A stretch of 64,000 nucleotides of DNA from Chiloscyllium plagiosum. Its lineage: Eukaryota. This document shows, piece after piece, positions 1 to 46,599 of this stretch; the stretch's first letter is position 1; each line of letters starts with the position of its first letter. The notes beneath the pieces are model-generated. The model searched no databases, was not told the origin of the DNA, and worked only from the letters and a program-made list of their open reading frames with translations. The stretch spans positions 3,096,648 to 3,160,647 of the forward strand of contig NC_057753.1 of assembly GCF_004010195.1 (NCBI RefSeq), in the 5' to 3' direction. A program made the position numbers and the translations under genes.

Positions 1-720
1 GTTTCCAAGGATTTCAGCAAGGCTTTGGACAAGGTCCCTCATGGAAGTTTAGGATGATTGGGATCCACGGTGACTTGGCTACATGGATTCAGAATTGGCT
101 TGCCCATACAGGGCAAAGGGTAGCGATGGAAGGGTGCTTTTTCAGGCTGAAGGTCCCTGACTAGTGTTGTTCTACAGGGATCGGTACTGGAACTTCTACC
201 ATTTGTGATATACATAAATGACTGAGATGAAAACATAGGTCAATGGGTTAGTAAGTTTGCAGGTCAGGCAGCATCCGAGGAGCAGGAAAACTGACGTCTC
301 GGGAATCTCCTGCCTGAAACGTCGATTTTCCTGCTCCTCGGATGCTACCTGACCTGCTGTGCTTTTCCAGCACCACTCTGATCTCCAGCATCTGCAGTCC
401 TCACTTTCGCCTAGTAAGTTTGCAGTCAACGCACAGATTGGTGGAGCTGTGGATAGTGTAGAAGGTTATCAGAATATAGATCGGTTGCGGATATCAGCCG
501 AGAAATGGCAGATGGAGATCAATGCGGATAAGTGTGAGATGCTGCACTTTGGAAGATGAAACGTTAAGGGAAAGTGACAGTTAATGGCAGGACCCTTAAC
601 AGCATTGATGTACGGAAGGATCTTCGGGTTCAAGTCGATAGCTCTCTGAAATTGGAAACACAGGTAGGTAAGGTGGTGAAAGAAGGCCTTTACTGGTTGA
701 CGAATTGAGTACAAAAATTA
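1..720 (+). mobile_element. CR1-clade LINE reverse transcriptase fragment (decayed)
   Basis: Broken frames give DFSKA.DKVPH, W..NWL, LQGSVL, SKFA.., W(Q)ME.NADKCE.LHFG; interrupted by the insertion at 263-411. Confidence 0.85.
263..411. mobile_element. Short palindromic Penelope-like terminus insertion (family B)
   Basis: Inverted arms gcaggtcaggcagcatccgaggagcaggaaaa / ttttcctgctcctcggatgctacctgacctgc; 14-bp TSD tagtaagtttgcag at 249-262 and 412-425; the hammerhead core is deleted at the centre. Confidence 0.8.
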
Positions 721-724
721 GTTG

Positions 725-1405
725 GATAGAGCTCTTAAGGATAAGTGGAACAAGGGTTATGGGGATAAGGCAGGGACAGGATACTGATTGAGGATGATCA
801 GCCATGATCATAATGAATGGTGGTGCTGGCTCGAAGGGCAGAATGGCCTACTCCTGCACCTATTGTCTATTGTTAGTTATCTTGATGCAGCTTTCGAAGA
901 CTTTGCTGAGAATACTGCATTCAGTCCTGGTCGCCACATTACAGGAAGGAGGTGGAGGGTTTGGAGAGGGCACAGAAGAGGTTAACCAGGATGCTGCCTG
1001 GATTAGAGAGCCTGAGAGGCTGGAAAAACTCAGGTTATTTTCTCTGGAGTGGCAGGGAATGAGAGGAGACTGGATAGGAGCCGAGGAAACGATGAGCTGC
1101 ATAGACAAGGTTGGCAGTCACAATCGTTTTCCCAGGATTGAAATGTCTCATGCTCAGGGGAATGCATTGAAGGTGAGAGAGGGACTGTGAAAAGGAGACG
1201 GGAGGGTCAGGTTTTTTACACAGAGTGGTAGGAGACTGGAAAGCAGTGTCAGTGTGGGGCTGGTTGAGGCACAGACAATAAGGGCATTTAAGGGACTTTG
1301 AGATAAGTGTATGAATGTGCAGGGAATGGAGGGATATAGTCCAAGGTTTGGTTTCATTTAGCATCATGTTTGGCACATTCCTGTGCTGTACTGCTCTATA
1401 TTCTA
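725..1405 (+). mobile_element. Two CR1-clade 3' fragments (725-872 and 880-1405)
   Basis: gatcagccatgatc...gaatggcctactcctgc tail; RLEKLRLFSLE..MRGD and FFTQRVV..W motifs; ctgtgctgtactgctctat tail. Confidence 0.75.
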
Positions 1406-1548
1406 ACTGTCCTACTCTCATCCAAACACTTGGTCACCTCCTCAACACACACTGTTAGGCATAACCTCCCTCTGACAACATTGTTAACTCTCCCTAATTA
1501 AATCTTGCCTCTCCAAATGGAAATTAATTTTCTTCTGCATTTTTTTTA

Positions 1549-1835
1549 AGATTCCCTACAGTGTAGAAACAGGCCCTTCGGCCCAACAAGTCCACACCGA
1601 TCCTCGGAAGAGTAACCCACCCAGACCCATTCCTCTACCCTATATTTACCCCTGTGGGCAATTTAGCGTGGCCAATTCACCCTAACCTGCACATCTTTGA
1701 GTTGGGGGAGGAAACCCATACAGACGTGGGGAGAATGTGCAAACTCCACACAGACAGTCGCCCTGAGGCTGGAATCGAACCTGGGACCCTGGCGTTGTGA
1801 GGCAGCAGTGCTAACCACTGAGCCACCGTGCCACC
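1549..1835 (-). mobile_element. HE1-type tRNA-derived V-SINE
   Basis: Minus strand reads a tRNA-like head (gtggctcagtggttagcactgctgcctcaca; B box ggttcgattcc), V domain (gtgtggagtttgcacattctcccc) and LINE-derived tail (ttgggccgaagggcctgtttc). Confidence 0.9.
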
Positions 1836-1949
1836 CTACTCTTCACTCAACCATCCTACCAATCTTACCATCATCAGCAAATGTACTTATCATCTCTCCC
1901 AATTCTCATCCACAGAGTTGTGGAGTTATTTAGAATTTTTTTTTCTTAG

Positions 1950-2250
1950 AATTACAGAACACCTACAGGCCCTTCAGCCCAACACGTCCACACCGACCCT
2001 CCGAAGAGTAACTCACCCAGACCCGTTCCACTACCCTATATTTACCCCTATGGGCAATTTAGCACGGCCAGTTCACACTAGCCTGCACATCTTTGGGTTG
2101 TGGGAGGAAACCGGAGCACCCGGAGGAAACCCATACAGACACGGGGAGAATGTGCAAACTCCACACAGATAGTTCCCCGAGGCTGGAATTGAACCCGGGT
2201 CCCTGGCGTTGTGAGGCAGCAGTGCTAACCACTGAGCCACCATGCCACCC
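1950..2250 (-). mobile_element. HE1-type SINE
   Basis: Same head / V domain / tail structure. Confidence 0.9.
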
Positions 2251-2777
2251 CCTATTTTTCTCCACTACGTTACTTACCACCGATGTTAGACTCATTGGTC
2301 TATAGTTCCTGGTCTGTCTCTATCACCCTCCTTATTAAGTGGAACCGCATTAGCTATCCTCCAGTCCTGTGGCCAGAAATGACTTAAAACTTTGGGTCAG
2401 GGCGCCTGTAATTTCTTCCCTCATCTCCCACGACAGCACGGCAGACAGTTCTTCCGCCTAGGCTATTTGTCCACTTTTAAATCAGTCAAAAACAACCTCA
2501 TTTCTTAGGAACTGCTTTTGTGTGTTGTGTTCTTCTACAACTGGAGGAGATCTCGGGATAAAAATTGTCTCAGCCGCTGCCGATAATATCCTGCTTTAGT
2601 TAGGAAGGTTCTCTTTGCTTTCAATGGAAATCTCTTGTTGGTTTTGATTTCTTAGTTTCATTACCCCATCGGTTTGAGGGAGTAAAAAAGGAAATGAATT
2701 CCAGAGAAACTGGAGTTGTCTGTTCTGAATTTCTAAGCTGGATTCACAGTTTTAGTAAACATCAACTCTTTACACAG

Positions 2778-3560
2778 GGAATGATTTGCAGACAGGAAAC
2801 TCAAACCAAGCATCACATCGAGATCTGGAGTCACTCGACCGATCAGAGCCGAAATAAGAGGGGCCTTTGACTGTGGAAGGAGAAATGTTCTGTGACAGAA
2901 AGTGTTTTTTTAAAAGTAAGTGTGACTGAAAGATCACTGCAACACGCTTTGGAGTGAGAGTGTTCCTGTGTACGGACAATGGAAAGAGCTTTAAACAGTT
3001 CCACAGAGTGGGGAGAAAGCGGCGCACCGCCAGCAGGGAGAAACCATATGTGTGTAGACGAGGTTTCAAATGATAATCCAATCTGGAGAGAGAGGGCAGC
3101 ACAAGGACAGCTGCATCATGGAGAAACCAGGGAAATGTGTAAACTGGGAGAAAGGATTCAATTCCGATCTGAGTTTGAAATCCCTTGGTGCGATCACATT
3201 GGGGGGAGAGTGCTCCCAAGTATGGGAAAGAATTCACGTGGTCATGGCCGAACGATGGACCAACTTACTGACTCTTGACTCAAGACCCTTTAAATGTGCT
3301 GACTTTCTGAGATGAGCTTTCAAAGTCCGAGGAATCTGTTGATCCACGCAGCGGATGGGGAGAAACTATTCACCTGCTTCGTGTGTCGGAAGCAGTTCAT
3401 TCTCAGTGAGTTTGTGCTGAGGCAAAACCTTTTAAATGTTCTGGGGGGACTTTTAAAAGCAGCGATGATCTGCTGAGACACGAACAGCAGGGACTGGGTT
3501 CTGCTGAAGTTGCTGCTGTTAATCACATCCAGAACCTGACCATCCTCATTCTAAGAGAAC
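2778..3560 (+). pseudogene. C2H2 zinc-finger pseudogene (coding exon)
   Basis: Acceptor tttacacAG at 2776-2777; pre-finger block DLQTGNSNQASHRDLES; MEKPGKC at 3118; eroded fingers (RPFKCADF, GEKLFTCFVC) with stops and frameshifts; family 3' motif gctgttaatcacatccag. Confidence 0.8.
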
Positions 3561-3744
3561 TTGCCTCTGTTGATGTAAATAGTCACTCTGACGAGGTTGA
3601 AGTGTAATATTCTGGATGTAGATTAAATAAATCAGCTTTGTGTCAAATGCACAGTTGTCAAGTCCTTGCGGGGAGGCTGATGTCCTGTTACTGATTGATT
3701 CATGTTTTAGCTCCTTTCTCCTCTTGATGTAAGACTTTTTATAG

Positions 3745-4070
3745 AGTCGTAGAATCCCTATATTGTGGAAACAGGCCTTCATCCCAACAAGTCCACACTG
3801 ACCCCCAGACCCATTCGCCTACCTTATTACTCTGCATTTACCCCTGACTAATGCACCTAACCTACACATTCCTGAACACTCTGGGCAATTTAGCCTGGCC
3901 AATCCACCCTAACCTGCACATCTTTGGACTGTGGGATGGAACCAGAGCACCCAGAGGGAACCCACGCAGACCCGAGGGGGAGAATATGCAAACTCCCCAC
4001 AGTTGCCCAAGGCTGGAATTGAACACAGGTCACTCGCACTGAGAGGCAGCAGTGTAAGCCACCTTCCACC
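3745..4070 (-). mobile_element. HE1-type SINE
   Basis: V domain and tail on the minus strand; degenerate head. Confidence 0.85.
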
Positions 4071-4158
4071 ACTTCAGACTGTAACCTCTGATGTAACGTA
4101 GGAAAATGCTACAGTAAACATGCACAGGAAGATCCCATACTTAGAAATGTGATTATAG

Positions 4159-4710: not shown

Positions 4711-4821
4711 CTGTTAATCTGCCAGGAGAAAGTGAGGTCTGCAGATGCTGGAGATCAGAGCTGAAAATGTTTTGCTGGAAAAGCGCAGCAGGTCAGGCAG
4801 CATACAGGGAACAGGAGAATC

Positions 4822-4849
4822 GACGTTTCGGGCATAAGCCCGTCTTCAG
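4822..4849 (-). ncRNA. Minimal type-I hammerhead ribozyme motif (family B)
   Basis: Reverse complement reads CTGAAGA-C-GGGC ttat GCCC-GAAA-CG-TC. Confidence 0.78.
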
Positions 4850-4857
4850 GAAGAAGC

Positions 4858-4885
4858 CTGAAGAAGGGCTTATGCCCGAAACGTC
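4858..4885 (+). ncRNA. Minimal type-I hammerhead ribozyme motif (family B)
   Basis: CTGAAGA-A-GGGC ttat GCCC-GAAA-CG-TC: intact core, 4-bp stem II, palindromic ACGT stem III, GUC cleavage triplet. Confidence 0.8.
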
Positions 4886-5114
4886 GATTCTCCTGTTCCC
4901 TGGATGCTGCCTGACCTGCTGCGCTTTTCCAGCAACACATTTTCAGCTGTTAATCTGCCGCCCAGTCCATTGGTTCATTGATGGTTCTTGAGGGATGAGT
5001 ATAGAACAGTTCACCAGCAAAACCCGCCGACCCTTCACAATAACCTCATGAGAACTTGCCCATCCATCTTCAAGGGCCCACCTGTAGCTTTAGTTGGAGA
5101 TTTCATCTGACAGT

Positions 5115-9946: not shown

Positions 9947-10140
9947 ACTGGAAAAGCACAGCAGGTCAGGCAGCATCTGAGGAGCAGGAGAGTCGAGGTT
10001 TTGGGCATTAGCCCTTCAGGATGAAGGGCTTATGCCTGAAATGTCTACTCTCCTGCTGCTCAGACACTGCCTGACCTACTGTGTTTTCCAGCACCACACT
10101 TATGGACTCTGATCTCCAGCATCTGCAGTTCTCACTTTTT
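9947..10140. mobile_element. Palindromic Penelope-like terminus element (family B, decayed hammerheads)
   Basis: Arms ctggaaaagcacagcaggtcaggcagc / ctgcctgacctactgtgttttccag centred near 10020 on tgaagggcttatgcctgaaatgtc. Confidence 0.8.
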
Positions 10141-10761
10141 CTCTCTCTCTCTGCTTTCAACTGAGGCAGTCTTCTGTCAGTTGTACTAATGCTGTGCATC
10201 AGGTCGGTTTTGAAACAAACCATCCCGATTTGGAAATATATCGCTGTTCCTTCACCGCACAGGCAGAAAATCCTGAAATTCCTTTCCGTACCTCAGTGTG
10301 GGTGTCCCTCCACCTCAAGGACTGCAGCAATTCACGGACACAGCCCATCACCACCTTCTCCCAGACAATTAGGGATGCACAATGAATGCTGGTCTAGCCA
10401 GCAAAGCCCAAATCTCTTCGACTGACTTGTAAAAATTGCACCGAAAATCAATTTCAGATTGAAATATAAATTCATAATTTTATTGCAGGGGTTTGTGTTG
10501 AAGCATTTTTAAAAATGTTTGTCTTTCATGGATTGGGATATCGCTGTCAGGTCTGATACATGTTGTTCATTCCTCAGTGAATGCTTGACCAATTCAAAGG
10601 TAAATAAGACTCAAACACCTTGCTGTGGATCCAGAGTCACGTGCAGACCAGACTATGAAAAGACTGCAAATTTCCTTCTATAAACTGCATTAATGAACCA
10701 GATGGGTTGAAATTCGGGCAGCACTGCTGCCTCACACTGCCAAGGATCCAGGATCAATTCC

Positions 10762-11374: not shown

Positions 11375-11612
11375 ACTGACTTTGTGGAGTTTGCACATTC
11401 TCCTCCGTATCTGCATGGATTTCTTCCAGGTACTCCAGTTTCTTCCCACAGTCCAGAAATGTGCAGGTTGGGTAGATTGGCTATGAGAAATGCAGGGTTA
11501 AAGAGTGGGTTGGGGGGGGGGGGGGGGGTGGGAATCATGATGGGCTGCTTTTCAGAGGGTCGGTGTGGACTTGATGGGCCAAATGGCTTGCTTCCACTCA
11601 CTGGGAGGGATT
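11375..11612 (+). mobile_element. HE1-type SINE (5'-truncated)
   Basis: V domain and tail; the tail overlaps the start of the tandem duplication. Confidence 0.75.
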
Positions 11613-11879
11613 CAGTGAAATTAAGGGTGAGCATCACAGATACTTTTTCAAGCCAATTTGGAGTCTGGGCTGACACCAATTGTTAAAGGTTCACTTGAGA
11701 ATGTAAGTTTTTAAAAAGTTTCGCGATTTCCATATGAAAGAAGAGAAACTAACATGGTCATTCTAACAGATGAGAGACTTAACAAACAATCAAGGTATTT
11801 TTCAATGTATAATTTCAGTTCCATCACAGTGTAACCATTTGCTATAAATTCTGTATCTTACAATTGTATACTCCACAGC

Positions 11880-11914
11880 CACCTGATGAAGGAGCAGTGC
11901 TCCGAAAGCTAGTG
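11880..11914 (+). ncRNA. Minimal type-I hammerhead ribozyme motif (family A)
   Basis: cac-CTGATGA-A-GGAGC agt GCTCC-GAAA-GC-TA-gtg: stem I cac/gtg, 5-bp stem II, palindromic AGCT stem III; predicted cleavage after 11911. Confidence 0.82.
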
Positions 11915-12262
11915 CTTCCAATTGAACCTGTTGGGCCAGAACCTGGCGTTTTAACTTTTCAAACTGCAGCCACAAAAATCACTGGGAGGGATTCAGTGAA
12001 ATTAAGGGTGAGCATCACAGATACCTTTTCAAGCCAATCTGGAGTCTAGACTGACGCCAATTGTCAAAAGTTCACTTGAGAATGTAACTTTTAAAAAGAA
12101 GTTTTGCGATTTACATATGAAAGAAGAGAAACTAACATGGTCATTCTAACAGATGAGAGACTTAACAAACAATCAAGGTATTTTTCAATGTATAATTTCA
12201 GTTCCATCACGGTGTAAACATTTGCTATAAATTCTGTATCTTACAATTGTATACTCCACAGC

Positions 12263-12297
12263 CACCTGATGAAGGAGCAGCGCTCCGAAAGCTAGTG
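12263..12297 (+). ncRNA. Minimal type-I hammerhead ribozyme motif (family A)
   Basis: cac-CTGATGA-A-GGAGC agc GCTCC-GAAA-GC-TA-gtg; predicted cleavage after 12294. Confidence 0.82.
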
Positions 12298-12443
12298 CTT
12301 CCAAATAAACCTGTTGGGCCAGAACCTGGCGTTTTAACTTTTCAAACTGCAGCCACAAAAATCAGTGACATTTACAGAATACTAAACTCCAGACTCTTCT
12401 GGGAGGTGTTAGCGTGATCAACAGCAGGATCTAACCCCAGCTA

Positions 12444-13118
12444 TCATTTGTGAACACGCTGATGTGTCAGCAGGTTTGATGGCTGACTGAAACCCTTCCC
12501 ACACACACAGCAGACAAATGGTTTCTCCCCAGTGTGAGTTCGCTGGTGTATTACCAGGTTAAAAGACTTTGTGAAACTCCTTCCACACACAGAGCACATG
12601 AACGGCCTCTCCCCTGTGTGAATTCGCTGGTGTATCAGAAGGTTGGATGGATGAGTGTATCCCTTCCCACACACAGAGCAAATGAAGCATCTCTCCCCAG
12701 TATGAACCCGTTGATGAGCTATAAGGTTGGGTGAAGACCTGAACATTTTCCCACAACTTGCACAGCTGAAAGGCCTCTCCTCTGTGTGTGTTTGTTGGTG
12801 TTCGAGCAAATGGGAGGACCGAGTGAATCCTTTCCCACACTCGGAGCAGGTGAACGGTCTCTCCCCTGTGTGAACTCGCTGGTGTGCAGTGAGGTTGGAT
12901 GAAGACCTGAACCGCTTTCCGCAGGAAGAGCACTTGAACGGCCTCTCCTCGGTGTGAGTTTGTTGGTGAGACTGGAGGCAGGATAACTGACTAAATGCTT
13001 TCTCGCAGACCGAGCAGGTGTATGGTTTCTCACCAGTGTGACTGCGTCGATGGTTTTCCAGTAGGGATGGGTAGTTGAATCCTTTACCACAATCCTCACA
13101 TTTCCATGGCTTCTCCAT
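12444..13118 (-). CDS. C2H2 zinc-finger protein, 8 tandem fingers (224 aa from the first ATG, MEKPWKC...)
   Basis: Intact ORF with 8 CxxC-x12-HxxxH units and TGE(K/R)P-type linkers; the track's start at 13148 is TTG, preceded by an in-frame TGA. Confidence 0.92.
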
Positions 13119-13477
13119 CGTGCTGATCTCCTTCTCCGAATTGGACAATCATGAGAAACATCGTCCACTCACTGGGCGCATACAAACAGACGCTCTCTGC
13201 TGTGATGGTGCAATGTTTGTTCAAACTCCAGAACTGGTTCACGTACTTTGCTGGAACACTCCTATTTAGGAGGACGGGACAGGGGTGCTTCTCCAGTCTC
13301 TCAGTACCTCTTCAGTCACACGGAACGTCTGAAACATTTTCTCACAGAACAGGCAAATCCTTCCTCAGTCAAAGGCTCATCATATTCATCAAAGTCGTGG
13401 CCTGGTTCTTTATTTGGGTCCCCCCTCGAGAACACCTCCCTCTTTTTTAAGATCTTGCAATAAGGAGTTCACGAACT

Positions 13478-13860
13478 CTGTGCAACCAACCCGTATGACC
13501 TGGGGTGTGGGGGGAATGCAAGAAAAAAGAGTTTACAACATTCTCCTCCCCCACTCCCTCTGCAACCAAACCCCCCCTGACCTGGGGGGAAAATGCAGGG
13601 AAGTGGGTTTACAACATTCTCCTCCCCCCACTCCCCCTGTAACCAACCCCCCTGACCTGGGGGGGAAATGCAAGAAAGAGGGTTTACAACATTCTCCTCC
13701 CCTCACTTCCTCTGCAACCAACCCCCTGACCTGGGGGGAAAATGCAGGGAAGAGGGTTTACAACATTCTCCTCCCCCAACTCCCTGTGCATCAAATCGTA
13801 TGACCTGGAGGAAAATGCAGCGGAGTGTTTACAACATTGTTACTCCCACCTACTCCCTCA
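13478..13860. repeat. Minisatellite, 5 x ~75 bp, G/C-skewed
   Basis: Units start tgacctgg at 13496, 13578, 13653, 13727 and 13801; core gtttacaacatt. Confidence 0.95.
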
Positions 13861-15104: not shown

Positions 15105-15741
15105 GACATGATATGGTGGTGCCGCTGTTGGACTGGGTGGACATTAAAAATCACACAAATCCAACAGGTTTAGTTGGAAGCACTAGCTTTCGGAGCGTTG
15201 CTGCAACTATTGGGGCAGCATCATAGGACACAGACTTTATAACAAAAGATCACAGTGTCATACAACCGATGCGACATATTGAACTGTATATCTTTCATCT
15301 CTTAGAATGTGTTGCAAGTTTCGATTCCTTAAAATGTAAATCCCAGAACTTCTTTCAGGTCATGTTCCTGAGATAACTTAAGGTTTTATTGGAAAAAAAA
15401 GTGACATCTCAGCTCAGGACACCTTTAATGCATTGTCTGAGCTGAGATGTCAACTTTTTTGATAAAATCTTAAGTTATCTCGGGAATGTGACTTGAAAGA
15501 AGTTCTGGATTTACGTAGTAATGAACTGAAACCTGCAACCCAGTCTAAAAGGTGAAAGGCTCAACAGCAATCCAGGTTAGTTCAATATATCACATCAGTT
15601 GTATGACACTATGACCTTTTACTGTAAATTCTGTGTCCTATGATCCTAACCCACTAGCATCCTGACAAAGGAGCAGCACTCTGAAAGCTAGTATATCCAA
15701 ATAAACCAGTTAGAGTATAACCTGGTGTTGTGTGATTTTTA
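15105..15741. mobile_element. Long palindromic Penelope-like terminus element (family A, ~300-bp arms)
   Basis: Arms mirror around ~15425 (gtgacatctcagctcag / ctgagctgagatgtca); degenerate hammerheads near 15181 (-) and 15662 (+); TSD actaactctgtg 15093-15104 / actaattctgtg 15742-15753. Confidence 0.85.
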
Positions 15742-16502
15742 ACTAATTCTGTGCAGCAGTCCAATAGGTTCCATGATCCCACTATATCCCCATAGCCTTG
15801 CAAGACTTTTACCTCAGTGCACACACAATTTCAGTTTGATTTCATGGATTGTCTTTGCTTTCACCTTGCTCACTGGCTCTGATTTCAGGTCATGACACTG
15901 AATGTCTGGCAGTATTTCTAATCAGAAATAGTGGACTGTATATAACAGATTTTTTTTTAAGATCCACTAATACGTACGTATATGTAGGGTGAAGATTTTC
16001 AGAAAGGACGTGTTAAGTGTCAATCAGCCTGAGTAGAGTGTGGGAAGATTGCTCATGGTGTTTGGAGATTAACAGAGAAAAGAAAGAAATTAGAATTATC
16101 TGTTCTGAATTGATTTCCTCTACTGTCAATCCTAACGTTTGTAAACTCCTTTTACAGTAAATTGGAAGGGAAGGATCTGCAGACATAAATGTCAAGTCAA
16201 AGGCCAAGTCAAGATCAGACTGAATCACTTAATTCATCCGGATGTGACTATCACCAGTCTGTGAATCAACAAACAAAGTCGTGTTTAGCCAACTCCAGTA
16301 GTTATTAAGCATCAGGAACTGGAAAAACAGGAGATATAACTGAGTGAGAATTCTTCCGTGCATTGACTGTGCAAAGAAACAGAAGCAGTTCCACAGCCTG
16401 AAGTTGAATTGCGTTGTTCCCCATGGGGAAGAGCCGGTTCTGTGTGCAGATGAAGCTTCCATCAATCATTTAACCTGAACTTTCGTGGGACACACACACA
16501 CC

Positions 16503-17429
16503 ATGGAGAAACCGTGGAAATGTGAGGACTGTGGGAAGGGATTCCGCTCCCCATCGGTGTTGGAAACACATCGACGCAGTCACACTGGTGAGAGGCCCTT
16601 CAGCTGCCCTGAGTGTGGGAAAGGATTCGGTGATTCCTCCACTCTGAAGAGACACGAGCGAGTTCACAGGCAGCAGAAGCCGTTCGCCTGCTCCATGTGC
16701 GGCAAGGGCTTCACTCAGTCCTGCCACCTGCTGACCCACCAGCGGGTTCACACCGGGGAGAGACCCTTCACCTGCTCCGAGTGCGGGAAGGGCTTCACTC
16801 AGTCGTCCGTGCTGCTGCGACACCGGCGCGTTCACGTCGAGGAGAGACCCTTCACCTGCACAGCGTGCGGGAAGGGCTTCACCCAGTCCTCGGACCTGCT
16901 GACGCACCAGCGGGTTCACACCAAGGAGAGGCCCTTCACCTGTTCCACCTGTGGGAAGAGGTTCGCTCACTCGTCCACCCTGCTGAGGCACCAGCGGGAC
17001 CACACTGGGAAGAGGCCGTTCGCTTGCTCCGAATGTGGGAAGGGCTTCGCTCAGTTTTCCGACTTGGTGCGCCACCGGCGGGTCCACACTGGGGAGTGCC
17101 CTTTCACCTGCTCCACGTGTGGGAAGGGATTCAGTCAGTCGTCCAGCGTGCTCAGGCACCACAGCAGCCACTCCAACGAAAGGCCTTTCAAATGCTCCGA
17201 CTGCGGGGGTAGCTTCAAAACAGCTGAGGACCTGATGGTCCACCAGAGGATTCACACCGAGGAGAGACCGTACGGCTGCTCCCGCTGCGCGAAGAGGTTC
17301 CGAACAGTATCCAGCCTGCGGAGACACCAGCGCATTCACACTGGGGAGCGGCCGTTCGAGTGCTCCGTGTGTGGGAAGGCATTTGCTCAGTCGTCCAACT
17401 TGCTGACGCACCAGCAAGTGCACGAGTGA
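16503..17429 (+). CDS. C2H2 zinc-finger protein, 11 tandem fingers (308 aa, MEKPWKC...)
   Basis: Intact ORF with good Kozak context (accATGg); 11 canonical fingers; upstream acceptor ccttttacAG at 16156-16157. Confidence 0.94.
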   Translation: MEKPWKCEDCGKGFRSPSVLETHRRSHTGERPFSCPECGKGFGDSSTLKRHERVHRQQKPFACSMCGKGFTQSCHLLTHQRVHTGERPFTCSECGKGFTQSSVLLRHRRVHVEERPFTCTACGKGFTQSSDLLTHQRVHTKERPFTCSTCGKRFAHSSTLLRHQRDHTGKRPFACSECGKGFAQFSDLVRHRRVHTGECPFTCSTCGKGFSQSSSVLRHHSSHSNERPFKCSDCGGSFKTAEDLMVHQRIHTEERPYGCSRCAKRFRTVSSLRRHQRIHTGERPFECSVCGKAFAQSSNLLTHQQVHE

Positions 17430-19645: not shown

Positions 19646-19859
19646 AAGTGAAACTTGGAAGCCAGCAGCTGGAGTTCCATCCCTGTTTAAGGAAGAGAAT
19701 AACCTTTTCCCTCATTTTGGACTTCCCTAATACAGGTGTTTGCTGTTTGCCTGTGCCAAGGACACCGTTTCTTAGCGAAGGAGCCCAAAACTGCGCACAG
19801 ACTCCAGGTGTGGTCTCACCAAGCACTGCATGCCTGCTGTCAGACCGCCTTGCTCCTGT

Positions 19860-20014
19860 GGGCTTCACCAGTTTCCTCATTTCCCCTCCCCCCACCTCAG
19901 CGCCCAAAACGTCGATTTTCCTGCTCCTGGGATGCTGCCTGACCTGCTGTGCTTTTCCAGCACCACTCTGATCTGAACTCTGGTTTCCAGCATCTGCAGT
20001 CCTCACGTTTGCCT
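19860..20014 (+). mobile_element. Penelope-like terminus insertion (family B)
   Basis: gcccaaaacgtcgattttcctgctcctgggatgctgcctgacc...catctgcagtcctcac; TSD ccttgctcctgt 19848-19859 / ccctgctcctgt 20015-20026. Confidence 0.75.
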
Positions 20015-25925: not shown

Positions 25926-26469
25926 TAAAAAATCTAGAACAAAGCTGGAAACCCAGTAGTGGACAGTCATGCCCAACTGGAGACTTTGTCTTAGCTTCTC
26001 TCAGATGCTGCCAGACCTGATGAGTATGTCCAACAGATAACAGAGTTGGTCAGCAAGCACAAAGGGCGCTGGGTGAGCGGAAAGCACACAGACAGAAGAG
26101 TTTTGAACGATCTTGGGCATCCGGGAGAGACGCCGAGCAGGAGCTGTATTGCAACGGGCAAGTCGAAAGGTAGCACGAGTGTTGATGAGGAGCTGTGATT
26201 GGCTGGTGATGGATGACATTCTGGAGATATCTGGGACTATTATTAGGATTATGTAAGAGTCAGAAGCTCAATTTGTGATTAAATATGAGATCAAGAATGT
26301 GAACTGTGTGATTCAAAGGAGAGGGGGTGGGGGGTCAATTGGTGATTAGAATTTGTAGCGATGACTCAAGACAATGGTTTTCATCTCCCCCAGTTTGTAA
26401 ATGGAGAACATTTCCTGTCTTCTAATATTGGACGTGGGATAATCAGTCTGATAACTTGATAACATCGAA

Positions 26470-26826
26470 CCTCAACTAGCCACCAAAAGACATGACCCAT
26501 TATCACTAGTTTCTATACATACAGACAAAGGACACCACTTGGACTGAGACAACACACACATCCTAGAAACAAAGACATGAACGAGAATTCCTAGAGGCAT
26601 GGCATTCTAACCAGAACTCCATCTATAAACACAGTGATTTAGATCCCATCTCCCTTCCCTTGAAAAAAAGAATTGGAAATGACATCACCCACCTTAAAAA
26701 ACCAAGGCCTATAAATAGAGTGGCAGGACATACCACCAGTGCTTCACCGGAGTCTCTCACTGATGTTGTTACCTAGTCATGGTGACAAAACATCTGAAAA
26801 CAAACCTTCCAGCTCAGCGAGCTAAC
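26470..26826 (+). mobile_element. Penelope-like element 3' end (GIY-YIG C-terminus and terminus, family C)
   Basis: QLATKRHDPLSLVS, REFLEAWHSNQNSI; degenerate hammerhead ctgatgttgttacctagtcatggtgacaaaacatc near 26760; same family as 31300-31823. Confidence 0.8.
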
Positions 26827-29999: not shown

Positions 30000-30240
30000 C
30001 TATCTGACCAGTCTCTCCGCATTGTGAACAAGTTGTTGGGACAGCAGTTCCCCATCACATTTATAGCAATTCCTGCTCTCTCTGCAAATTCAAAGATCTC
30101 TCTCCAGTGTGAACTTGCGCATGGACCATCAAGTGGGAAGAGCAAATGAATCTCTTCCTATGCTCGGATCACATGAACGGTCCCTTCCCGATGTGACCGT
30201 GCCAATGGCTGTCCAGCTGAGGCACGAATCAGAAGGCTTC

Positions 30241-30268
30241 CTGAAGAAGGGCTTATGCCCGAAACGTC
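30241..30268 (+). ncRNA. Minimal hammerhead motif (family B) within a ~100-bp insertion (30231-30329)
   Basis: CTGAAGA-A-GGGC ttat GCCC-GAAA-CG-TC, identical to 4858-4885. Confidence 0.8.
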
Positions 30269-30885
30269 GATTCTCCTGTTCCCTGGATGCTGCCTGACCT
30301 GCTGCGCTTTTCCAGCAACACATTTTCAGCCTTCATCACAGACCAACATGTCCAGGATCTCCCTTCAGTGTGACTGTGTTTGTGTCTCCAGAGGTCAGGT
30401 GATTGATTGAAGCCTTGTTCACCCAGAGAATACATGTAGGACTTCTCCTCCCGATGAACTGTGCTTTCCTTCCACGTCCAAAATCCAATTCACGTTCTGG
30501 TTGTGATAAATTGGAAGTCTCCATCAGTTACTGACGTCCTGCTGGATCTATGATCCCTGGCTGTAATTCCTCCCCCGTCTGGCACCTTCCAAAATGTGTT
30601 TTATATCAGGAGAGAAAGGAGAGTAAGAGAAAAAACGAAGGCCGGCCTGCAACATTGAGCTGAATGAGTGATAACTTATTGGGGCAGCCGAAAGAGAAAC
30701 GTATCACAAAAACCTGCCAGAATCTTAGAAAAGCCAAACTCGTTCACTAATGTCCATCAAGGAAGGGAATCTGGCACCCAGTCTGAAGATGCACAAGATG
30801 GGTTGAAAAGAGAGAGACAGAGGCAAAGGAGAGAGATCACCCAGTGTCGTGCCCAAGCTAAACTTCAAATATTATATTTAAATAT

Positions 30886-31269
30886 GACTTGGAAGTGCCG
30901 GTGTTGGACTGGGGTGGATAAAGTGAAAAATCACACAACGCCAACAGGTTTATTTGGAAGCACTAGCTTTCGTAACACCGCTCCTTCATCAGGTGGTTGT
31001 GGAGTATAAGATCGTAGGACACACATTTTACATATAAAAGAACTGAAACCAACATGCCTATTCTAAAAGATGAGAGACTGAACAAACAATCCAGGTCTTT
31101 TTCAATATATAATTGCAGTTACATCACACTGTAAACTTTTGCTATAAATTCTGTGCCTTACGATCTCATACTCCACAACCACCTGATGAAGGAGCAGCGC
31201 TCAGAAAGCTAGTGCTTCCAAATCAACCTGTTGGGCTCTAACCTGGTGTTGTGTGATTTTTAACTTTGA
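30886..31269. mobile_element. Palindromic Penelope-like terminus element (family A)
   Basis: Inverted hammerhead-bearing arms (30961-30993 minus; 31180-31214 plus; both have stem II mismatches); TSD atttaaatat at 30876-30885 and 31270-31279. Confidence 0.85.
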
Positions 31270-31299: not shown

Positions 31300-31823
31300 C
31301 ATCTGGATGTAGGTTTGCTCGCTGAGCTGGAAGGTTCATTTCCAGACGTTTCGTCACCCTACTAGGTAACATCTTCAGTAGGCCTCAGGCGAAGCACTGC
31401 TCATAATTCCTGTTTTCTATTTATATCTTTGGGTTTCTTTGGGTTGGTAATGTCATTTCCTGTGATGAGGTCATTTCTTGTGGTGAAGTCACTTCCTGTT
31501 CCTTTTCTCAGGGCATGGTAGATGGGGTCTAACTCGATGTGGTTGTTGATAGAGTTCCGGTTGGAATGCCATGCTTCTAGGAATTCTCGTGCGCAACTTT
31601 GTTTGGCTTGTCCTAGGATGGATGTGTTGTCCCAGTCGAAGTGGTGTCCTTCCTTATCTGTACGTAAGGATACTAGTGAGAGAGGGTCATGTCGTTTTGT
31701 GGCTAGTTGTGGTGTTCATGTATCCTGGTGGCTAGTTTTCTGCCTGTTTGTCCAATGTAGTGTTTGTTACAGTTCCTTACACGGTATTTTGTAAATGACA
31801 TTAGTTTTGCTTGTTGTCTGTAT
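31300..31823 (-). mobile_element. Penelope-like element fragment with GIY-YIG endonuclease and terminus (family C)
   Basis: Reverse complement translates TNVIYKIPCK / CNKHYIGQTGRKLATRIHEH / QLATKRHDPLSLVS...HHFDWDNTSILGQA...REFLEAWHSNRNSINNHIELDPIY (2 frameshifts). Confidence 0.9.
31342..31381 (-). ncRNA. Minimal hammerhead motif (family C)
   Basis: Reverse complement: cta-CTGAAGA-T-GTTACC tagtag GGTGAC-GAAA-CG-TC-tgg; 6-bp stem II. Confidence 0.8.
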
Positions 31824-34188: not shown

Positions 34189-34986
34189 AAAGGATATGAC
34201 TGAAGTCAAGACTGTCGGTAATAGACAGGACTTGAGAGACAAACATTTCTCTTGGTCTGTGTTTGCCATGTGTAAATCGTCTGCCTCCCTCCCCGTGCAA
34301 GAGGAGTATTTGAAATCCGTTCCAAACAATCCAGGATTTGAACGTGCAAGAGGAGCTTTCTGCTTCTTGGGTGAAATTGGTCATGCACATGCTCAGTCTT
34401 TATTAAGATGGCGACTGTTCCCCTGGGTTTCTCAATTATTTTTCGAAAACAAAAGCTTGTCTGGAAATAACGAGGAATCAATGGTCTGACAAGATGGGAA
34501 AGTTAATGAAATCAATATGAAATTAAGTAGTAATAGTGTCGAGCTAAAGGGAACTAAATTGCAATAAATGCCTGAACCATGGTCAAGCATTCTTAGATTT
34601 TAAAAGAGGAGCTGCAGAGACTGTGATTCTTTTGCCTTAAATCTTCTAGATATTCACTGGAACACTGAAATGCCACCCACTTTGCTCCCTAATGGGTTTT
34701 TAGGTAGATTCCCAATGACAAAAGAGTCCAGAACAAAGGGTCACAGTAAGAATATGGGGTAGGCCATTTGGACTGAAAAGAGGAAAAATTTATTAACCCA
34801 GAGAGCAATGAGAATTCTCTTCCACTGACAGCAATTAAAGCCAAAGCATTAAATGTTTTCAAGGAGTTAGGCATAGCTCATCAGGTTAAACGGTTCATTG
34901 GATTTGGAGATGCCAGCATTTCAGTTACATCACACTATAAATTTTTACTATAAACTTCTGTCCCTTATAATTGTGTCCTCCACAAC

Positions 34987-35021
34987 CACCTGATGAAGGA
35001 ACGGCGCTCCGAAAGCTAGTG
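34987..35021 (+). ncRNA. Hammerhead motif (family A) in a short Penelope terminus fragment (~34905-35030)
   Basis: cac-CTGATGA-A-GGAAC ggc GCTCC-GAAA-GC-TA-gtg (one stem II mismatch). Confidence 0.7.
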
Positions 35022-42200: not shown

Positions 42201-43619
42201 TCATTGGTGTGTACATTGTTGATGGAGCATTAATTCCTCCGAACTTTTAAAGCACTTCCTGCATTCTGGGCATTTAAAAGGTCGCTCAGAGTGAACACGT
42301 TGATGGCGCATCAGATCCCAGGATCTCTTGTAGCACTTTCCACAATCTGTGCAATTAAAAGGTCTCTCCTCAGTGTGAACGCGCTGGTGCGTCATCAAGT
42401 GAATTTTCTGAGTGAATCCCTTCCCACATTCAGAGCAGGTGAACGGTCTCTCTCCAGTGTGAGTGCGCTCGTGCGCAGCGAGATGAGATGACCATCTGAA
42501 CCCAGTCCCACAGTGAGAGCACCTGAATGGTCGATTATCTGTATGAATACGTTGATGTAACTTCAGTTCCCTGGAACTTTTATAATACTTGCCACAATCT
42601 GGACATTTGAAAGGTCTCTCCTCAGTGTGATCGCGCTGGTGTGCCTTGAGTTGGGATGACTCAATGAATTCCTTCCCACACACCTTGCAGGTGAATGGCC
42701 TCGGCCCAGAATGAACTCGCTGGTGTGTCAACAGGGTGGAGAACCGAACGAATACCTGCCCGCATTCAGAGCAGATAAACGACCTCTCCCCAGTGTGAAG
42801 ACGCTGGTGTATCGTAAGTTGCGATGATCTCTTGAATCCAGTTCCACAATGAGAGCACATGAATGGTCTCTCGTCAGTGTGGACACGTTGATGCACCATC
42901 AGTTCCCTGGAACTTTTAAAGCTCTTCCCGCACTCTGAACATTTAAAAGGTCTCTCATCATTGTGAACACGTTGATGAGACTGCAGATGGCTTGAAGTTT
43001 TGAAGCACTTCCTGCAGTTCGGGCATTTATAAGGTCTCTCCTCAATGAGAACCTGCTGGGGTTCCTTGACATGATCTGACTGAGTGAGTTCACTCCCACA
43101 TTCGGGAGTGGCTGGCCTTTCCTCGCTGTGAATGCGCTCATGTACAGTGAGTTGAGATGACCGCTTGAAGCCAGCCCCACAGTGAGAACAGCTGAACCGC
43201 CTCTCCTCAGTATGAACACATTGATGGGACGTCAGATCATTGCAACTTTTAAAGCACTTCCCACAGTCTGTACAATTAAAAGGCCTCTCCTCAGTGTGAA
43301 CTCGCTGGTGTGTGAGCAGGGTAGATAGCTTAGTGAATCCTTTCTCACACTTGAAACAGATGAACGGCCTCTCTCCTGTGTGACTACGTTGGTGAATTTT
43401 CAGCGCACCGCAGTGACTGAATCCTTTCTCACAGTCCGTGGATTTCCCCAGTTTCTCCCCAGTGGCACTGCATTTGTGGTTCTTAAGGCCGGTCGATTGG
43501 TTGAAGCCTTTTCTACATATAGAGCACGTGAACCTCTTCTCCCCACTGTGAATAGTACTTTTTTCTTCCATGTTTAAAATTTGCTGAGATTCAGGTTCTG
43601 ATAACTTGGGTGACTCCAT
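42201..43619 (-). CDS. C2H2 zinc-finger protein, 472 aa, 13 canonical and ~3 degenerate fingers
   Basis: Intact ORF; acceptor (rc) gaatttaacAG at 43681-43682; candidate donor (rc) GTAAGT at 44966-44971 links it to the CpG island at 45 kb. Confidence 0.93.
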   Translation of the reverse strand: MESPKLSEPESQQILNMEEKSTIHSGEKRFTCSICRKGFNQSTGLKNHKCSATGEKLGKSTDCEKGFSHCGALKIHQRSHTGERPFICFKCEKGFTKLSTLLTHQRVHTEERPFNCTDCGKCFKSCNDLTSHQCVHTEERRFSCSHCGAGFKRSSQLTVHERIHSEERPATPECGSELTQSDHVKEPQQVLIEERPYKCPNCRKCFKTSSHLQSHQRVHNDERPFKCSECGKSFKSSRELMVHQRVHTDERPFMCSHCGTGFKRSSQLTIHQRLHTGERSFICSECGQVFVRFSTLLTHQRVHSGPRPFTCKVCGKEFIESSQLKAHQRDHTEERPFKCPDCGKYYKSSRELKLHQRIHTDNRPFRCSHCGTGFRWSSHLAAHERTHTGERPFTCSECGKGFTQKIHLMTHQRVHTEERPFNCTDCGKCYKRSWDLMRHQRVHSERPFKCPECRKCFKSSEELMLHQQCTHQ

Positions 43620-44099
43620 CGGATCACGATGCGATGTTTGGTTTCAATTTCCAGACTGCAAATTCTTCTCTTCTCATAGCCTGTTAAATTCATTTAAAAT
43701 AGAAAAGAATGAGAGAGAAAACCACAAAAACAGGTTGTAAAATTGTACTGAGTGATTCTGGCAGGTTTTAGGGTCAGCATTTGGGAAAAACGAGCACAAC
43801 AGCTACTAGACTGTCAGAGAAGCTCAACCAGGGTTAAATCGATATCTATCTGGAAAGGGAAACCTGCTACCTGGTCTGGGCCTACTCAAGACTGTGGGAC
43901 CTGTATACAGCAGAGAGAAAAGAGAAACAGCTGCAAACAGAGAGAGGGAGAGAGAAACACGGGAGGAAGGAGGAGGGGGCAAAGGATAAGGATTTTACAT
44001 ACAGTATCTGTAACTTGTCCAGAAATTTGACAGGGTCTCCCAAACACTCAATCTCCAAAGGAATTGGCCTTGCAGATCTAAGTGAAATCTATGCAGATC

Positions 44100-44460
44100 A
44101 CTCCACGATTATCCTGACCCCCTCTGACATCCAGTAACGGAGCAAATGACTTTCTTCAACTAAATACTGTATTCGGAGAATGAAAGTCACAGTCTTCGGT
44201 CCGTTTGGAGCTCGATTCCCCAGCAGCCAATTCAATCTCTCCCCCGGCAACTGCAAGATGCTGAAACAGACTGTTTGAAATGGTACCCCTGGCCTGCAGC
44301 ATCCGCACCGAAAGCACCCAGATGTTCAGAATCTCGGTGCCACATTTCACCCCAAACCGAGATCCAACCGCACATCTGTACCACCTGGGTAACTCCACCG
44401 GTCTCAGCTTCTGAAACTGTCGCCATTCCATTCTTGACCCTAGACCTGTCGATCCCAACG
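44100..44460 (+). mobile_element. Old L2-clade LINE RT C-terminal fragment
   Basis: Decayed VTVFGP, HF..N..IQPHI and SASET motifs typical of the L2 C-terminus. Confidence 0.5.
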
Positions 44461-44489
44461 CCTCCCACATTCAGCCTCCCTGCAATTGA

Positions 44490-44920
44490 TTCTGGATTAG
44501 TGGTGCTGGAAGAGCACAACAGTTCAGGCAGCATCCAAGGAGCAGCAAAATCGACGTTTCTGCCTGAACTGCTGTGCTCTTCCAGCACCACTGATCCAGA
44601 ATCTGGTTTCCAGCATCTGCAGTCATTGTTTTTAACCCTACTGCGAATCCTCTGGCAAGGATGTCTGCCTTGAAGAAGTTTTCCTCCTCTCTCTACAAGA
44701 ATCTCAGGGACTCCCTCTCCCAGTGCAATTCTATGCTACTTTCTCCCTACCCCCACCAGCTTATCTCTCCACCCTTCAGGCTCTCTGCCTTTATTCCTGA
44801 TGAAGGGCTTTTGCCCGAAACGTCGATTTCGCTGCTCCTTGGATGCTGCCTGAACTGTTGTGCTCTTCCAGCATCACTAATCCAGAATCTGGTTTCCAGC
44901 ATCTGCAGTCAATGTTTTTA
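44490..44920 (+). mobile_element. Penelope-like pseudo-LTR insertion: inverted arm, tail copy, pLTR, hammerhead, tail copy
   Basis: Tail repeated at 44561-44637 and ~44847-44920; inverted arm 44490-44560; TSD cctccctg(c/t)aattga at 44475-44489 and 44921-44935. Confidence 0.85.
44797..44824 (+). ncRNA. Minimal hammerhead motif (family B variant)
   Basis: CTGATGA-A-GGGC tttt GCCC-GAAA-CG-TC. Confidence 0.8.
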
Positions 44921-44994
44921 CCTCCCTGTAATTGAGATCACCCACCCACTGCTGCCAGTCTGCTCACTTACACCGACTCTTGCTGAGTCATCCC

Positions 44995-45490
44995 GTGACA
45001 TCACAACATTCCCACACAGGGTGGCCGCGCATGCTCACAACATTCGCCCCACAGGGTGGCCGCGCATGCTCACAACATTCCCAAACAGGATGACCGCGCA
45101 TGCGCGCAGCTTAGCCACGCTCCCCGCCCGAGCCCTAAGCCCCGCCCCTTCCCTGTTGGCTCGGCCACAATGGCGGACGAGGACCGCTGCCTCTTCCCCG
45201 GGAGCAAGCTCCGGAACAGCCAACGCGGGGCCCGCAGCTTCTTATTTGGGGGACTGCGGGCTACACGAGGCGCTTATGTAGCCGCCCCGCTCCTCTCTCC
45301 TCACCAAACCACCGTCTCCCGGCTCCACGCCTCCCCTTTCTCCCGCCGACCGCGGCCGCTGGTAGCAGCAGCTCCGAGGGTCCCACAGCTCTGATCGAAG
45401 TAACATTGCGCATGCCCCAGATACAATCGACACTGCGCCTGCGTGCCAGCCTCTCGTTGAGTGGACGCGGTCTGTTCAAGCCCGCAAGGC
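44995..45490. promoter_or_regulatory. CpG island, probable bidirectional promoter (472-aa ZNF and the ZNF pseudogene)
   Basis: NRF1-like gcgcatgc x4 and tgcgcctgcg; GC boxes near 45122 and 45140; YY1-like caatggcgg near 45168. Confidence 0.8.
45001..45103. repeat. 3 x 34-35-bp tandem repeat
   Basis: tcacaacattc...acagg(g/a)tg(g/a)ccgcgcatgc at 45001, 45035 and 45070. Confidence 0.9.
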
Positions 45491-45506
45491 ATCTTGGGTA
45501 ATAGGA

Positions 45507-45824
45507 CAAAGTTTAAAGATCACACAACAGCAGATTACAGTCCAACAGGTTCATTGGAAGCACTAGCTTTAAAAGTGCTGCTCCTTCAGCAGGTGGTTGT
45601 GGACAATACCGACACAGAATTTGTAGCCACAATTATGGTCTTATTCTCCACAACCAACTGTATCACATCTCCCTGACACTGGTCTCCTTTGGCTATGAAT
45701 TCTGTCAGCATAACCTTCACAACCACCTGAAGGAGGAGAGGCGAAAGCTAGTGCTTCCAAATCAGCCTGTTGGATTATAACCTGGTGGTGTGATTTTTAA
45801 GTTTGTCCACCCCAGTCCCTCCAA
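45507..45824. mobile_element. Palindromic Penelope-like terminus element (family A, decayed hammerheads)
   Basis: ~150-bp inverted arms; TSD atcttgggtaatagga 45491-45506 / atcttggtaacagga 45825-45839. Confidence 0.8.
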
Positions 45825-46259
45825 ATCTTGGTAACAGGATTGTCATGAGCATTCAGTTAAAGGGTCTTAAAACTAATCATCTTATAAATTTGTTAGAATA
45901 TTTAAGTTAACATTATCTGCTTCTCCACTATTTCTTAAAGCCTCCCATCAATTTCTCATTGAGATTTAATGCTCTACTATCTTGTGAGAAGAGTTCGAGT
46001 TTGTGGAACTTTGCAGTTTCCCTTTCTGACTGGTCCTGAAGGGTTTGCTCTCAGTCCTGCAGCACCACCCCTCCCTCCCCCACCACAACTTGATTGGTTG
46101 GAGGGCCAGTCCTCCCGTTCTACCTCCTCTTCGTATTGGGTGATTGATGACAGGTTTCAGCCAAATACTGAGTGAGCGTACACTAGACTGCAGCTGATCA
46201 CCAGCAGGTAGGCGACTGTGTTCTCCCGTGCCCAACATAAACACAGTTTCGGAATTGGC

Positions 46260-46370
46260 TTTTGCCCAAAACGTCCATTCTCCTGCTCCTCGGATGCTGC
46301 CTGACCTGCTATTCTTTCCCAGCGCCACACTCTCTACTCTAATCTCCAGCATCTGCAGTCCTCACTTTCG
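46260..46370 (+). mobile_element. Penelope-like terminus insertion (family B) truncated inside hammerhead stem II
   Basis: Perfect 18-bp TSD cacagtttcggaattggc at 46242-46259 and 46371-46388. Confidence 0.85.
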
Positions 46371-46599
46371 CACAGTTTCGGAATTGGCCACAGCCTGTGA
46401 CCATGGAGGGAAGGATTGTGCCCAAAGATGGATTTGCAGACTTCAGACACATACCCTATAGACCATAAATCCTGTGCCGGGTAGCAGCGGTTTAAAGGGC
46501 TCAAGCCAACAAATGGAGGGGCAAATGTTGATTCAAACTGGGATCGTCCGCTCTGAATCTATCCATCACTGACAGGGTGATCCCTTCTGCAAACTCTCT

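What the first reader, a model, noticed from the sequence alone, without database searches (positions are those of the whole stretch)
263..46388. Window-wide set of hammerhead-carrying mini-elements: three ribozyme families, about 14 motifs
Seen: family A (GGAGC/GCTCC stem II, AGCT stem III) at 11883, 12266, 34990, 31183 and 30961 (-), decayed at 15181, 15662, 45561 and 45727. Family B (GGGC/GCCC, ACGT) at 4858, 4822 (-), 30241 and 44797, decayed near 10020. Family C (GTTACC/GGTGAC) at 31342 (-), decayed near 26760. All keep CUGANGA plus one extra base, GAAA and a palindromic mini stem III, while the stem II sequences differ completely yet still pair. Family C is attached to a GIY-YIG ORF, tying the motif to Penelope-like elements. 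Families A and B occur here only as ORF-less termini. Inference: at least two non-autonomous, ribozyme-bearing Penelope parasites have amplified at SINE-like density in this genome.
Basis: partly seen in the sequence, partly recalled or inferred. Interest (0 to 1): 0.72.

Follow-up and report, generated by a model that had tools for sequence, protein, structure and literature searches.

The report
Penelope retroelement stubs carrying hammerheads
The small ribozyme motifs are real, but they are the tail ends of full-size Penelope-like jumping genes in a shark-type genome, a known kind of debris, and most short copies likely arose when the copying enzyme ran off the capped start of the element's uncut RNA, which would place the ribozyme at the very front of the transcript.

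Summary
Observation confirmed: ten motifs keep CUGANGA-N-stem II-GAAA and seven pass a strict descriptor. Families A and B are not ORF-less parasites. Elsewhere in this genome A, B1, B2 and C each sit behind a GIY-YIG endonuclease frame, and RT frames were found for A, B2 and C. They are ends of Neptune-type (A, B) and Poseidon-type (C) Penelope-like elements, whose minimal hammerheads are published (PMC4209133). The window's density is close to the genome's.

What is less ordinary: 5' ends pile up at -11..+8 from CUGA, not at the cut site (48 of 65 young B, 20 of 28 young A). The B peak is an initiator-like A, preceded by G in 65 of 100 copies against 26% expected. Head-to-head pairs carry one long and one short tail in 58 of 68. 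The likely mechanism is run-off from a capped, uncleaved RNA. Cleavage in vivo is untested; junctions at the cut site are at most about twofold enriched. The scan reported this reading before on other DNA of this genome and in other shark genomes.

The parts
259..413 (.). B-type head-to-head pair, both arms lacking the CUGA core; 14-bp target duplication
4724..4948 (.). Young B1 head-to-head pair: minus arm -3..+125 (long tail, motif 4849-4822), plus arm -1..+90 (short tail, motif 4858-4885); 14-bp target duplication
9948..10143 (.). Decayed B head-to-head pair (+5..+74 minus, +2..+123 plus)
11671..11950 (+). A terminus -214..+67 with intact motif at 11883; first unit of a 383-bp local tandem duplication (11598-12364)
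12057..12333 (+). Duplicate of the same A terminus, intact motif at 12266
15107..15744 (.). Old A head-to-head pair (long tail minus, short tail plus), cores decayed
19857..20001 (+). B-type terminus: piece of the 3' UTR joined to +16..+113, core missing
26462..26826 (+). Old C copy: end of the GIY-YIG frame plus decayed motif near 26760
30238..30330 (+). Young B1 stub -3..+89 with intact motif at 30241
30884..31268 (.). A head-to-head pair (minus -38..+120, plus -156..+85); both motifs (30992-, 31183+) have a stem II mismatch; 10-bp target duplication
31304..31798 (-). C copy: broken GIY-YIG frame, intact motif 31378-31345 with an ATG at the start of stem II, short tail
34918..35021 (+). A terminus -71..+31, motif at 34990 with one stem II mismatch, tail lost
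44488..44922 (.). B2 complex insertion: inverted arm (+20..+92), then tail plus ORF start (44560-44729), then terminus -74..+125 with intact motif at 44797
45506..45818 (.). Old A head-to-head pair, cores decayed
46257..46369 (+). B-type stub +9..+121, core missing; 18-bp target duplication

Best explanation
These are 5'-truncated insertions of the hammerhead-bearing ends (pLTRs) of endonuclease-encoding Penelope-like retrotransposons, and most of the very short ones are likely dead-end run-off copies made when the element's reverse transcriptase started at a tail site near the front of its own capped, uncleaved RNA. Shown: each motif family is joined to a Penelope ORF in this genome; copies end at two fixed 3' points; 5' ends pile up at the 5' edge of the ribozyme; inverted pairs carry one long and one short tail and 12-18-bp target duplications. 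Inferred: (1) transcription starts 4 nt (B) or about 8 nt (A) before CUGA, 30-35 nt behind a TATA-like box in the upstream pLTR; (2) the RT start sites occur near both ends of the RNA, and priming at the front ones gives 90-130-nt cDNAs that end at the cap, often with an extra C (G in the genome); (3) both cut target strands prime, one at each start site, and the two cDNAs are joined head to head; (4) the stubs lack the upstream promoter and the ORF start, so they are likely not masters; (5) the ribozyme was mostly uncut in the RNA that was copied.
For: ORF linkage: B2 29 of 30 loci, Pfam GIY-YIG above cut-off in L112, 600-aa RT-bearing frame with the motif downstream in L171; A 12 of 20 loci with RT, CxxC linker and EN frames; B1 3 of 20; C 10 of 15 by pattern, RVT_1 hit below cut-off in L123. 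Two 3' ends at about +85-92 and +120-126 in A and B, and about +74 and +107-115 in C. 5' hot spot: of young copies reaching +8, 48 of 65 (B) and 20 of 28 (A) stop at -11..+8; other 20-nt windows lose 6-25% (B) and 0-33% (A); their upstream flanks are unrelated or are the inverted partner. YYANWYY with A at -4 in B1 and B2, TTTTAT at -36 in B1, TATAAA at -40 in A. 5,724 B1 copies start at -4 after a non-reference base; the first 100 listed have G 65, A 20, T 15 (my count) against 26% G expected, p 3e-16. In inverted pairs, where the neighbour is not target DNA, 11 of 14 have G, four of them not explained by the partner's sequence (L380, L394, L399, L403). Long plus short tail in 58 of 68 pairs (p 2e-9). 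Target duplications in 20 of 34 young pairs against 1 of 34 controls. Literature: internal initiation at two sites, extension of both strands, unprocessed RNA as the main substrate (PMC11167929); extra G as a cap mark in L1 (PMC11702581); TSS inside the pLTR (PMC8557442).
Against: No RNA 5'-end data: laid RNA reads showed no start or end peak, lay on both strands, and 98% ran on into unlike sequence (single-cell polyA data, probably another species). In solo copies the G often also lies in the target duplication (L383/384, L388, L390, L397), so target preference or microhomology adds to it, and 6 of the 11 G-bearing inverted junctions fit partner microhomology. The G test is strong for B1 only; A has 3 of 4 at -8; B2's upstream element is a poor TATA. 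Among 30 copies that read through into the ORF start, only 1-2 of the 6 reaching +8 stop in the hot spot. A second B2 re-entry cluster at -71..-79 (10 of 28 junctions with a re-entry) is unexplained. No gap-free intact full-length ORF was seen among 40 fetched long loci. C gave too few young copies (4) to test.
Confidence: 0.75

Rival explanations
1. Same elements, but the short copies come from the RNA's 3' end, and the RT stalls at the folded or protein-bound ribozyme, with target ATT/GAT microhomology fixing the junction.
For: The hot spot coincides with the ribozyme's 5' edge in two unrelated families. The B peak is at an ATT, the motif the anole endonuclease prefers (PMC11167929). Solo junctions often share GAT with the target.
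Against: A has no ATT at its peak. A stall predicts no G excess at cDNA-cDNA junctions, yet 11 of 14 have G. The stop lies past the only stable hairpin (stem II). Read-through copies mostly pass the site (small n).
Confidence: 0.15
2. The stubs are self-propagating non-autonomous elements (SINE- or retrozyme-like).
For: Stubs far outnumber ORF-bearing copies: 58,974 exact B motifs against 844 exact ORF-start read-throughs for B2. Reads from stub-bearing transcripts exist. Non-autonomous pLTR derivatives are described (PMC8557442; preprint 10.64898/2026.07.22.740005).
Against: The stubs are near-identical to the ends of ORF-bearing copies. 5' ends and flanks are heterogeneous. The only tandem in the window is a unique local duplication. 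Internally deleted copies have different ORF-side breakpoints each time. The anole protein needs the first 172 nt of the ORF (PMC11167929), which stubs lack.
Confidence: 0.07
3. The copies are products of ribozyme-cleaved or circular RNA, so the ribozyme defines the inserted unit.
For: Some junctions lie exactly at +28: L303 twice, L290, L308; 6 of 30 loci; two small deletions ending at the cut site in the list.
Against: Most 5' ends lie about 30 nt upstream of the cut. In 100 listed B1 junctions, +28 has 13 firm rows (up to 26 with ambiguous ones) against 7-13 at +23, +27 and +29 to +32 (my count). The A test was confounded by a TG-insertion subfamily.
Confidence: 0.05

Closest known systems
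Minimal hammerheads (min-HHR) in pLTRs of metazoan Penelope-like elements (Cervera and de la Pena 2014, PMC4209133; parts 1-2 of 4 read)
   Same: Core boxes, extra base between 9 and 10.1, G10.1-C11.1, palindromic 15.2/16.2, short helix I, several families per genome, most motifs single and tied to truncated elements
   Different: Sharks are not named in the parts read. This genome has 63,779 exact A and B motifs and an estimated 1.7e5 strict ones (28 in 585 kb), against about 4,000 (coelacanth) and 9,000 (Xenopus) there, with a different descriptor
Neptune-type EN+ Penelope-like elements (Craig et al. 2021, PMC8557442; passages read)
   Same: A, B1, B2: RT, C-x4-C-x2-C linker, C-terminal GIY-YIG, pLTR with hammerhead, inverted 5'-truncated partner, 30-40-bp tail on one end
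   Different: Clade assigned from the linker only, no tree with named references; Nematis shares the linker
Poseidon of Anolis carolinensis, PAc (Frangieh et al. 2024, PMC11167929; parts 1-2 of 4 read)
   Same: C: no linker, ATG at the start of stem II, cut 28 nt after the ATG (26 in PAc), two 3' ends; two RT start sites and both-strand extension fit the pairs seen here
   Different: In the parts read, the paper does not report stubs ending at the ribozyme's 5' edge or a cap-derived G
Non-LTR retrozymes (Li et al. 2026 preprint 10.64898/2026.07.22.740005; parts 1-3 of 5 read)
   Same: Type-I hammerhead in pLTR-derived sequence; reported from one chondrichthyan, average unit 363 bp. The window's 383-bp dimer would meet their two-unit rule
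   Different: Copies here are dispersed monomers or head-to-head pairs, and the 383-bp dimer's junction is unique in the genome

Membership tests
Minimal type-I hammerhead | CUGANGA, extra base, stem II with G10.1-C11.1, GAAA, NUH, palindromic 15.2/16.2 | tested here: met
   7 window motifs
Minimal type-I hammerhead | Pairing kept through different sequences | tested here: met
   Between families, read: stem II GGGC/GCCC, GGAGC/GCTCC, GTTACC/GGTRAC; stem I ATTC/GATT or GAAT, CAC/GTG, AGTT/AACT. Not tested statistically; within families the changes look like decay
Minimal type-I hammerhead | Self-cleavage (dimer or protein-assisted) | not testable with these tools
   Junction counts at the cut site are inconclusive
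EN+ Penelope-like element | RT followed by a C-terminal GIY-YIG endonuclease, upstream of the pLTR | tested here: met
   homologues carry PF00078 with PF01541. For B1 the EN end and ORF start were seen, its RT lay in assembly gaps
EN+ Penelope-like element | 5' truncation, inverted partner, 30-40-bp tail on one end, partial tandems | tested here: met
EN+ Penelope-like element | Intact full-length ORF (an active master) | tested here: inconclusive
   Young long copies contain assembly gaps; gap-free ones are broken
Neptune clade (A, B) | CX2-5CxxC linker between RT and EN | tested here: met
   L112 (B2), L132 and L139 (A)
Neptune clade (A, B) | RT phylogeny with named Neptune references | not tested
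   No named references at hand; RT identity B-A 34%, B-C 23%
Penelope/Poseidon clade (C) | No linker; ORF starts at stem II of the hammerhead | tested here: met
   L118; window translation
Non-LTR retrozyme | Repeated tandem units, each with a hammerhead, forming a family | tested here: not met
   The single dimer's junction occurs once in the genome; other copies are monomers or inverted pairs
Non-autonomous SINE-like element | Own fixed unit distinct from the end of an autonomous element | tested here: not met
   Sequence continues upstream into UTR and ORF; deletion junctions vary

The most novel reading that the evidence does not exclude
About a million stubs form a fossil map of the Penelope RNA. 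It starts, capped, 4-8 nt before the catalytic core, so helix I is closed by the transcript's first bases. Cleavage would remove a 32-37-nt capped leader (and, in family C, the start codon). The hammerhead would then be a protein-triggered off-switch for translation of the element's own RNA, not a tool for cutting out the template, and most insertions are strong-stop-like by-products primed on both target strands.
Probability: 0.3. Interest if true: 0.65.

Novelty: new member of a known kind. Interest (0 to 1): 0.3.

Why it matters
The kind of element is published, so the finding as written is ordinary. What it adds is a handle on two open points of Penelope biology: what the hammerhead does (called unclear in PMC8557442) and how inverted ends form. 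The junction statistics predict a precise transcription start and an uncleaved template, both testable by CAGE and by the existing in vitro system. About 4% of sampled DNA matches these element ends, which matters for repeat annotation in sharks.

Tried and rejected
Rfam scan: no hammerhead family at E<=5, only hairpin-type miRNA matches on the palindromes. Monomer folding: stem II forms in most, no three-stem core, z-scores from -1.9 to +1.1; expected for minimal motifs, so uninformative. Sequencing runs: no RNA holder listed as on record; one of two raw RNA runs gave no reads, the other no start or end peak. Retrozyme reading of the 383-bp dimer: rejected as a family. Splice-acceptor origin of the hot spot: no common AG before the junctions. 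A single deleted non-autonomous B2 lineage: rejected, breakpoints vary. Cut-site peak: inconclusive. The B1 tally is biased by loci chosen and was not used. The alignment was not used. The CTGATGA...GAAA string at 53368 has 5 unpaired bases before GAAA and lies in an L1-like ORF1 region; rejected. Literature: searches for shark + Penelope + Neptune + retrotransposon (0 papers), hammerhead + shark + Penelope (1 review, listing only), Chiloscyllium + Penelope (listing only), Penelope + untemplated G + cap and Penelope-like + TSS + hammerhead + promoter (3 listed) showed no description of these families or of the cap-G hot spot. Dfam, Repbase, subscription journals and supplements were not seen, so entries may exist there.
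Full report
1. Observation. Ten keep the full core and seven pass a strict descriptor, against 0-2 in each of 60 simulated windows. Three A motifs (30992-, 31183, 34990) have a stem II mismatch. The pair 11883/12266 is one insertion in a 383-bp tandem duplication that includes host flank and whose junction is unique in the genome. Positions below are counted from the C of CUGA (0); the predicted cut lies before +28 (B), +29 (A) and +34 (C).

2. Genome context. The window is G000:C44 of a 3.56-Gb assembly. The B RT is 90-92% identical to proteins named from Chiloscyllium punctatum and 69-72% to those of other elasmobranchs, so this is a bamboo-shark-like genome (inference). Exact motif counts are 58,974 for B and 4,805 for A, with 0 for the reversed controls. 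A piece of the C endonuclease gave 70,330 first-look candidates, which is not a copy number. In 585 kb taken at fixed steps from 19 other contigs there are 14.5 B1-like, 5.8 B2-like, 6.2 A and 1.5 C termini per 100 kb; the window has 12.7, 6.3, 14.3 and 3.2. It is typical except for about twice as much A. Strict motifs were 28 in 585 kb, about 1.7e5 per genome.

3. Every family belongs to a coding element. B2: in L028 an endonuclease C-terminus ends 206 nt before the motif, and 29 of 30 loci found with that peptide carry the motif at the same distance. L112 hits Pfam GIY-YIG above the cut-off, and L171 has a 600-aa frame with RT motifs and the motif downstream. B1: an EN frame lies upstream in 3 of 20 loci, many others being truncated or gapped, and L174 joins the ORF start to a B1 end across a gap. 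A: RT, linker and EN frames, with the motif 390-660 nt behind the EN end in 12 of 20 loci; Pfam gave no hit for the three A fragments tried. C: the motif abuts the EN frame in 10 of 15 loci by pattern, one of them the window itself and two duplicates. A and B have the C-x4-C-x2-C linker that marks Neptune and Nematis, and C lacks it (definition in PMC8557442, passages read). C has an ATG at the start of stem II, as the anole Poseidon does (PMC11167929). RT identities are 34% for B-A and 23% for B-C. No intact gap-free ORF was seen in 40 long loci.

4. Anatomy of the copies. I mapped ends in 800 kb of sampled DNA, the window, and the flanks of loci chosen for other families, dropping hits shorter than +60 or next to N (98 A, 213 B, 19 C). 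3' ends fall in two groups about 35 nt apart, the known tail. Head-to-head pairs have one long and one short tail in 58 of 68 cases, and 20 of 34 young pairs have 12-18-bp target duplications against 1 of 34 controls; solo copies have them in 14 of 86 against 2 of 86. The one-sided tail and the inverted partner are described (PMC8557442 and PMC3846280, passages read). The latter explains the palindromes by self-priming on an antisense template, a model I did not test directly.

5. The 5' hot spot. Of young copies (88% identity or more) that reach +8, 48 of 65 B and 20 of 28 A stop between -11 and +8; other 20-nt windows lose 6-25% and 0-33%. Upstream flanks of these copies are unrelated to one another or are the inverted partner, so a diverged subfamily does not explain it in A and B. 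The C hits starting at -2 are a sister subfamily and do not count. Contigs of another run show the same edge, with 717 loose ends at -4 and low agreement among them, though B1 copies with their own UTR contribute. The B peak is the A of a YYANWYY string at -4, with TTTTAT at -36 in B1; A has TATAAA at -40 and ends at -8 and -9 (the Inr and TATA consensus are recalled). Of 5,724 B1 copies starting at -4, the first 100 listed are preceded by G in 65, A in 20 and T in 15 (my count; 26% G expected). An extra G marks copying of the cap in L1 (PMC11702581, passage read). The caveat is that G in solo copies often lies in the target duplication too. In inverted pairs 11 of 14 have G: four not templated by the partner, six compatible with it, one after filler. 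I had the start-site idea before the look-up; the TATA/Inr check and the decision to run the G count followed leads in those notes, and I tested both here.

6. Mechanism. The anole protein cuts and extends both strands, starts internally at two sites that match the tail ends, needs the first 172 nt of the ORF, and mostly uses uncleaved RNA; its ribozyme cuts only with protein (PMC11167929, parts 1-2 read). On an RNA that begins just before the ribozyme, the front copy of the start sites is the one followed by the ORF, so priming there would give 90-130-nt run-off cDNAs. Two such cDNAs, one from each strand and start site, would give the pairs. Longer copies would come from the rear sites. Stubs would lack both the upstream TATA-like box and the ORF start, so they would be dead ends. 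These steps are inferred. Against them: no RNA 5'-end data; only 1-2 of 6 read-through copies stop in the hot spot; and a B2 cluster at -71..-79 is unexplained.

7. Does the ribozyme cut? Not shown. A few junctions are exactly at +28, but 100 listed B1 junctions give 13 firm and up to 26 possible at +28 against 7-13 at most neighbouring positions (my count). The site also begins with GATT, which invites microhomology. If the start site is right, cleavage would remove the capped leader; that is the novel case, not a result.

8. Comparison and verdict. Minimal hammerheads in pLTRs, spread genome-wide as single motifs of truncated elements, are described in PMC4209133 (parts 1-2 read). These families are new members of that kind; my searches found no paper on them, but Dfam, Repbase and supplements were not available. 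The scan has 342 notes on the theme in at least 26 genomes, several with the same reading; these are not independent evidence. Interest 0.3: the finding as written is known and its parasite claim fails, while the junction pattern gives a testable prediction.

Noticed in passing
L226, L232, L233, L252, L275-L277, L280, L281 (not in the window): A fourth, older hammerhead family with a 5-bp stem II (GGGTC/GACCC-like) and a 4-bp stem I (AGTT/AACT); its partner ORF was not sought.
   Followed up: partly
L247, L271, L219, L284: Sister subfamily of C with a changed stem II and its own upstream sequence; three near-identical copies in L247 may be a tandem.
   Followed up: no
window 44560-44922; L295, L296, L298-L301, L304, L306, L312: B2 copies in which the ORF start jumps to the 3' UTR at -71..-79 from varying ORF positions; a second RNA start, a strong stop or assembly collapse are all possible.
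   Followed up: partly
L303, L289: Direct-repeat units whose two arms begin at the same point (+28 in L303, +61/62 in L289), as if the RT ran off one RNA end twice.
   Followed up: no
L089, L095, L096, L098, L099: Inverted B2 arms in five loci end with the same unrelated sequence after about +70, suggesting a shared source copy or a mis-assembly.
   Followed up: no
window 12444-13148 (-), 16479-17429 (+), 42201-43643 (-): C2H2 zinc-finger arrays; the window lies in a zinc-finger gene cluster.
   Followed up: no
window 53004-58453 (+): L1/Tx1-like LINE with a 939-base assembly gap; CR1-like fragments and an abundant tRNA-like SINE are scattered through the window (labels recalled).
   Followed up: no
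window 13509-13859: 74-bp minisatellite, 4.4 copies.
   Followed up: no
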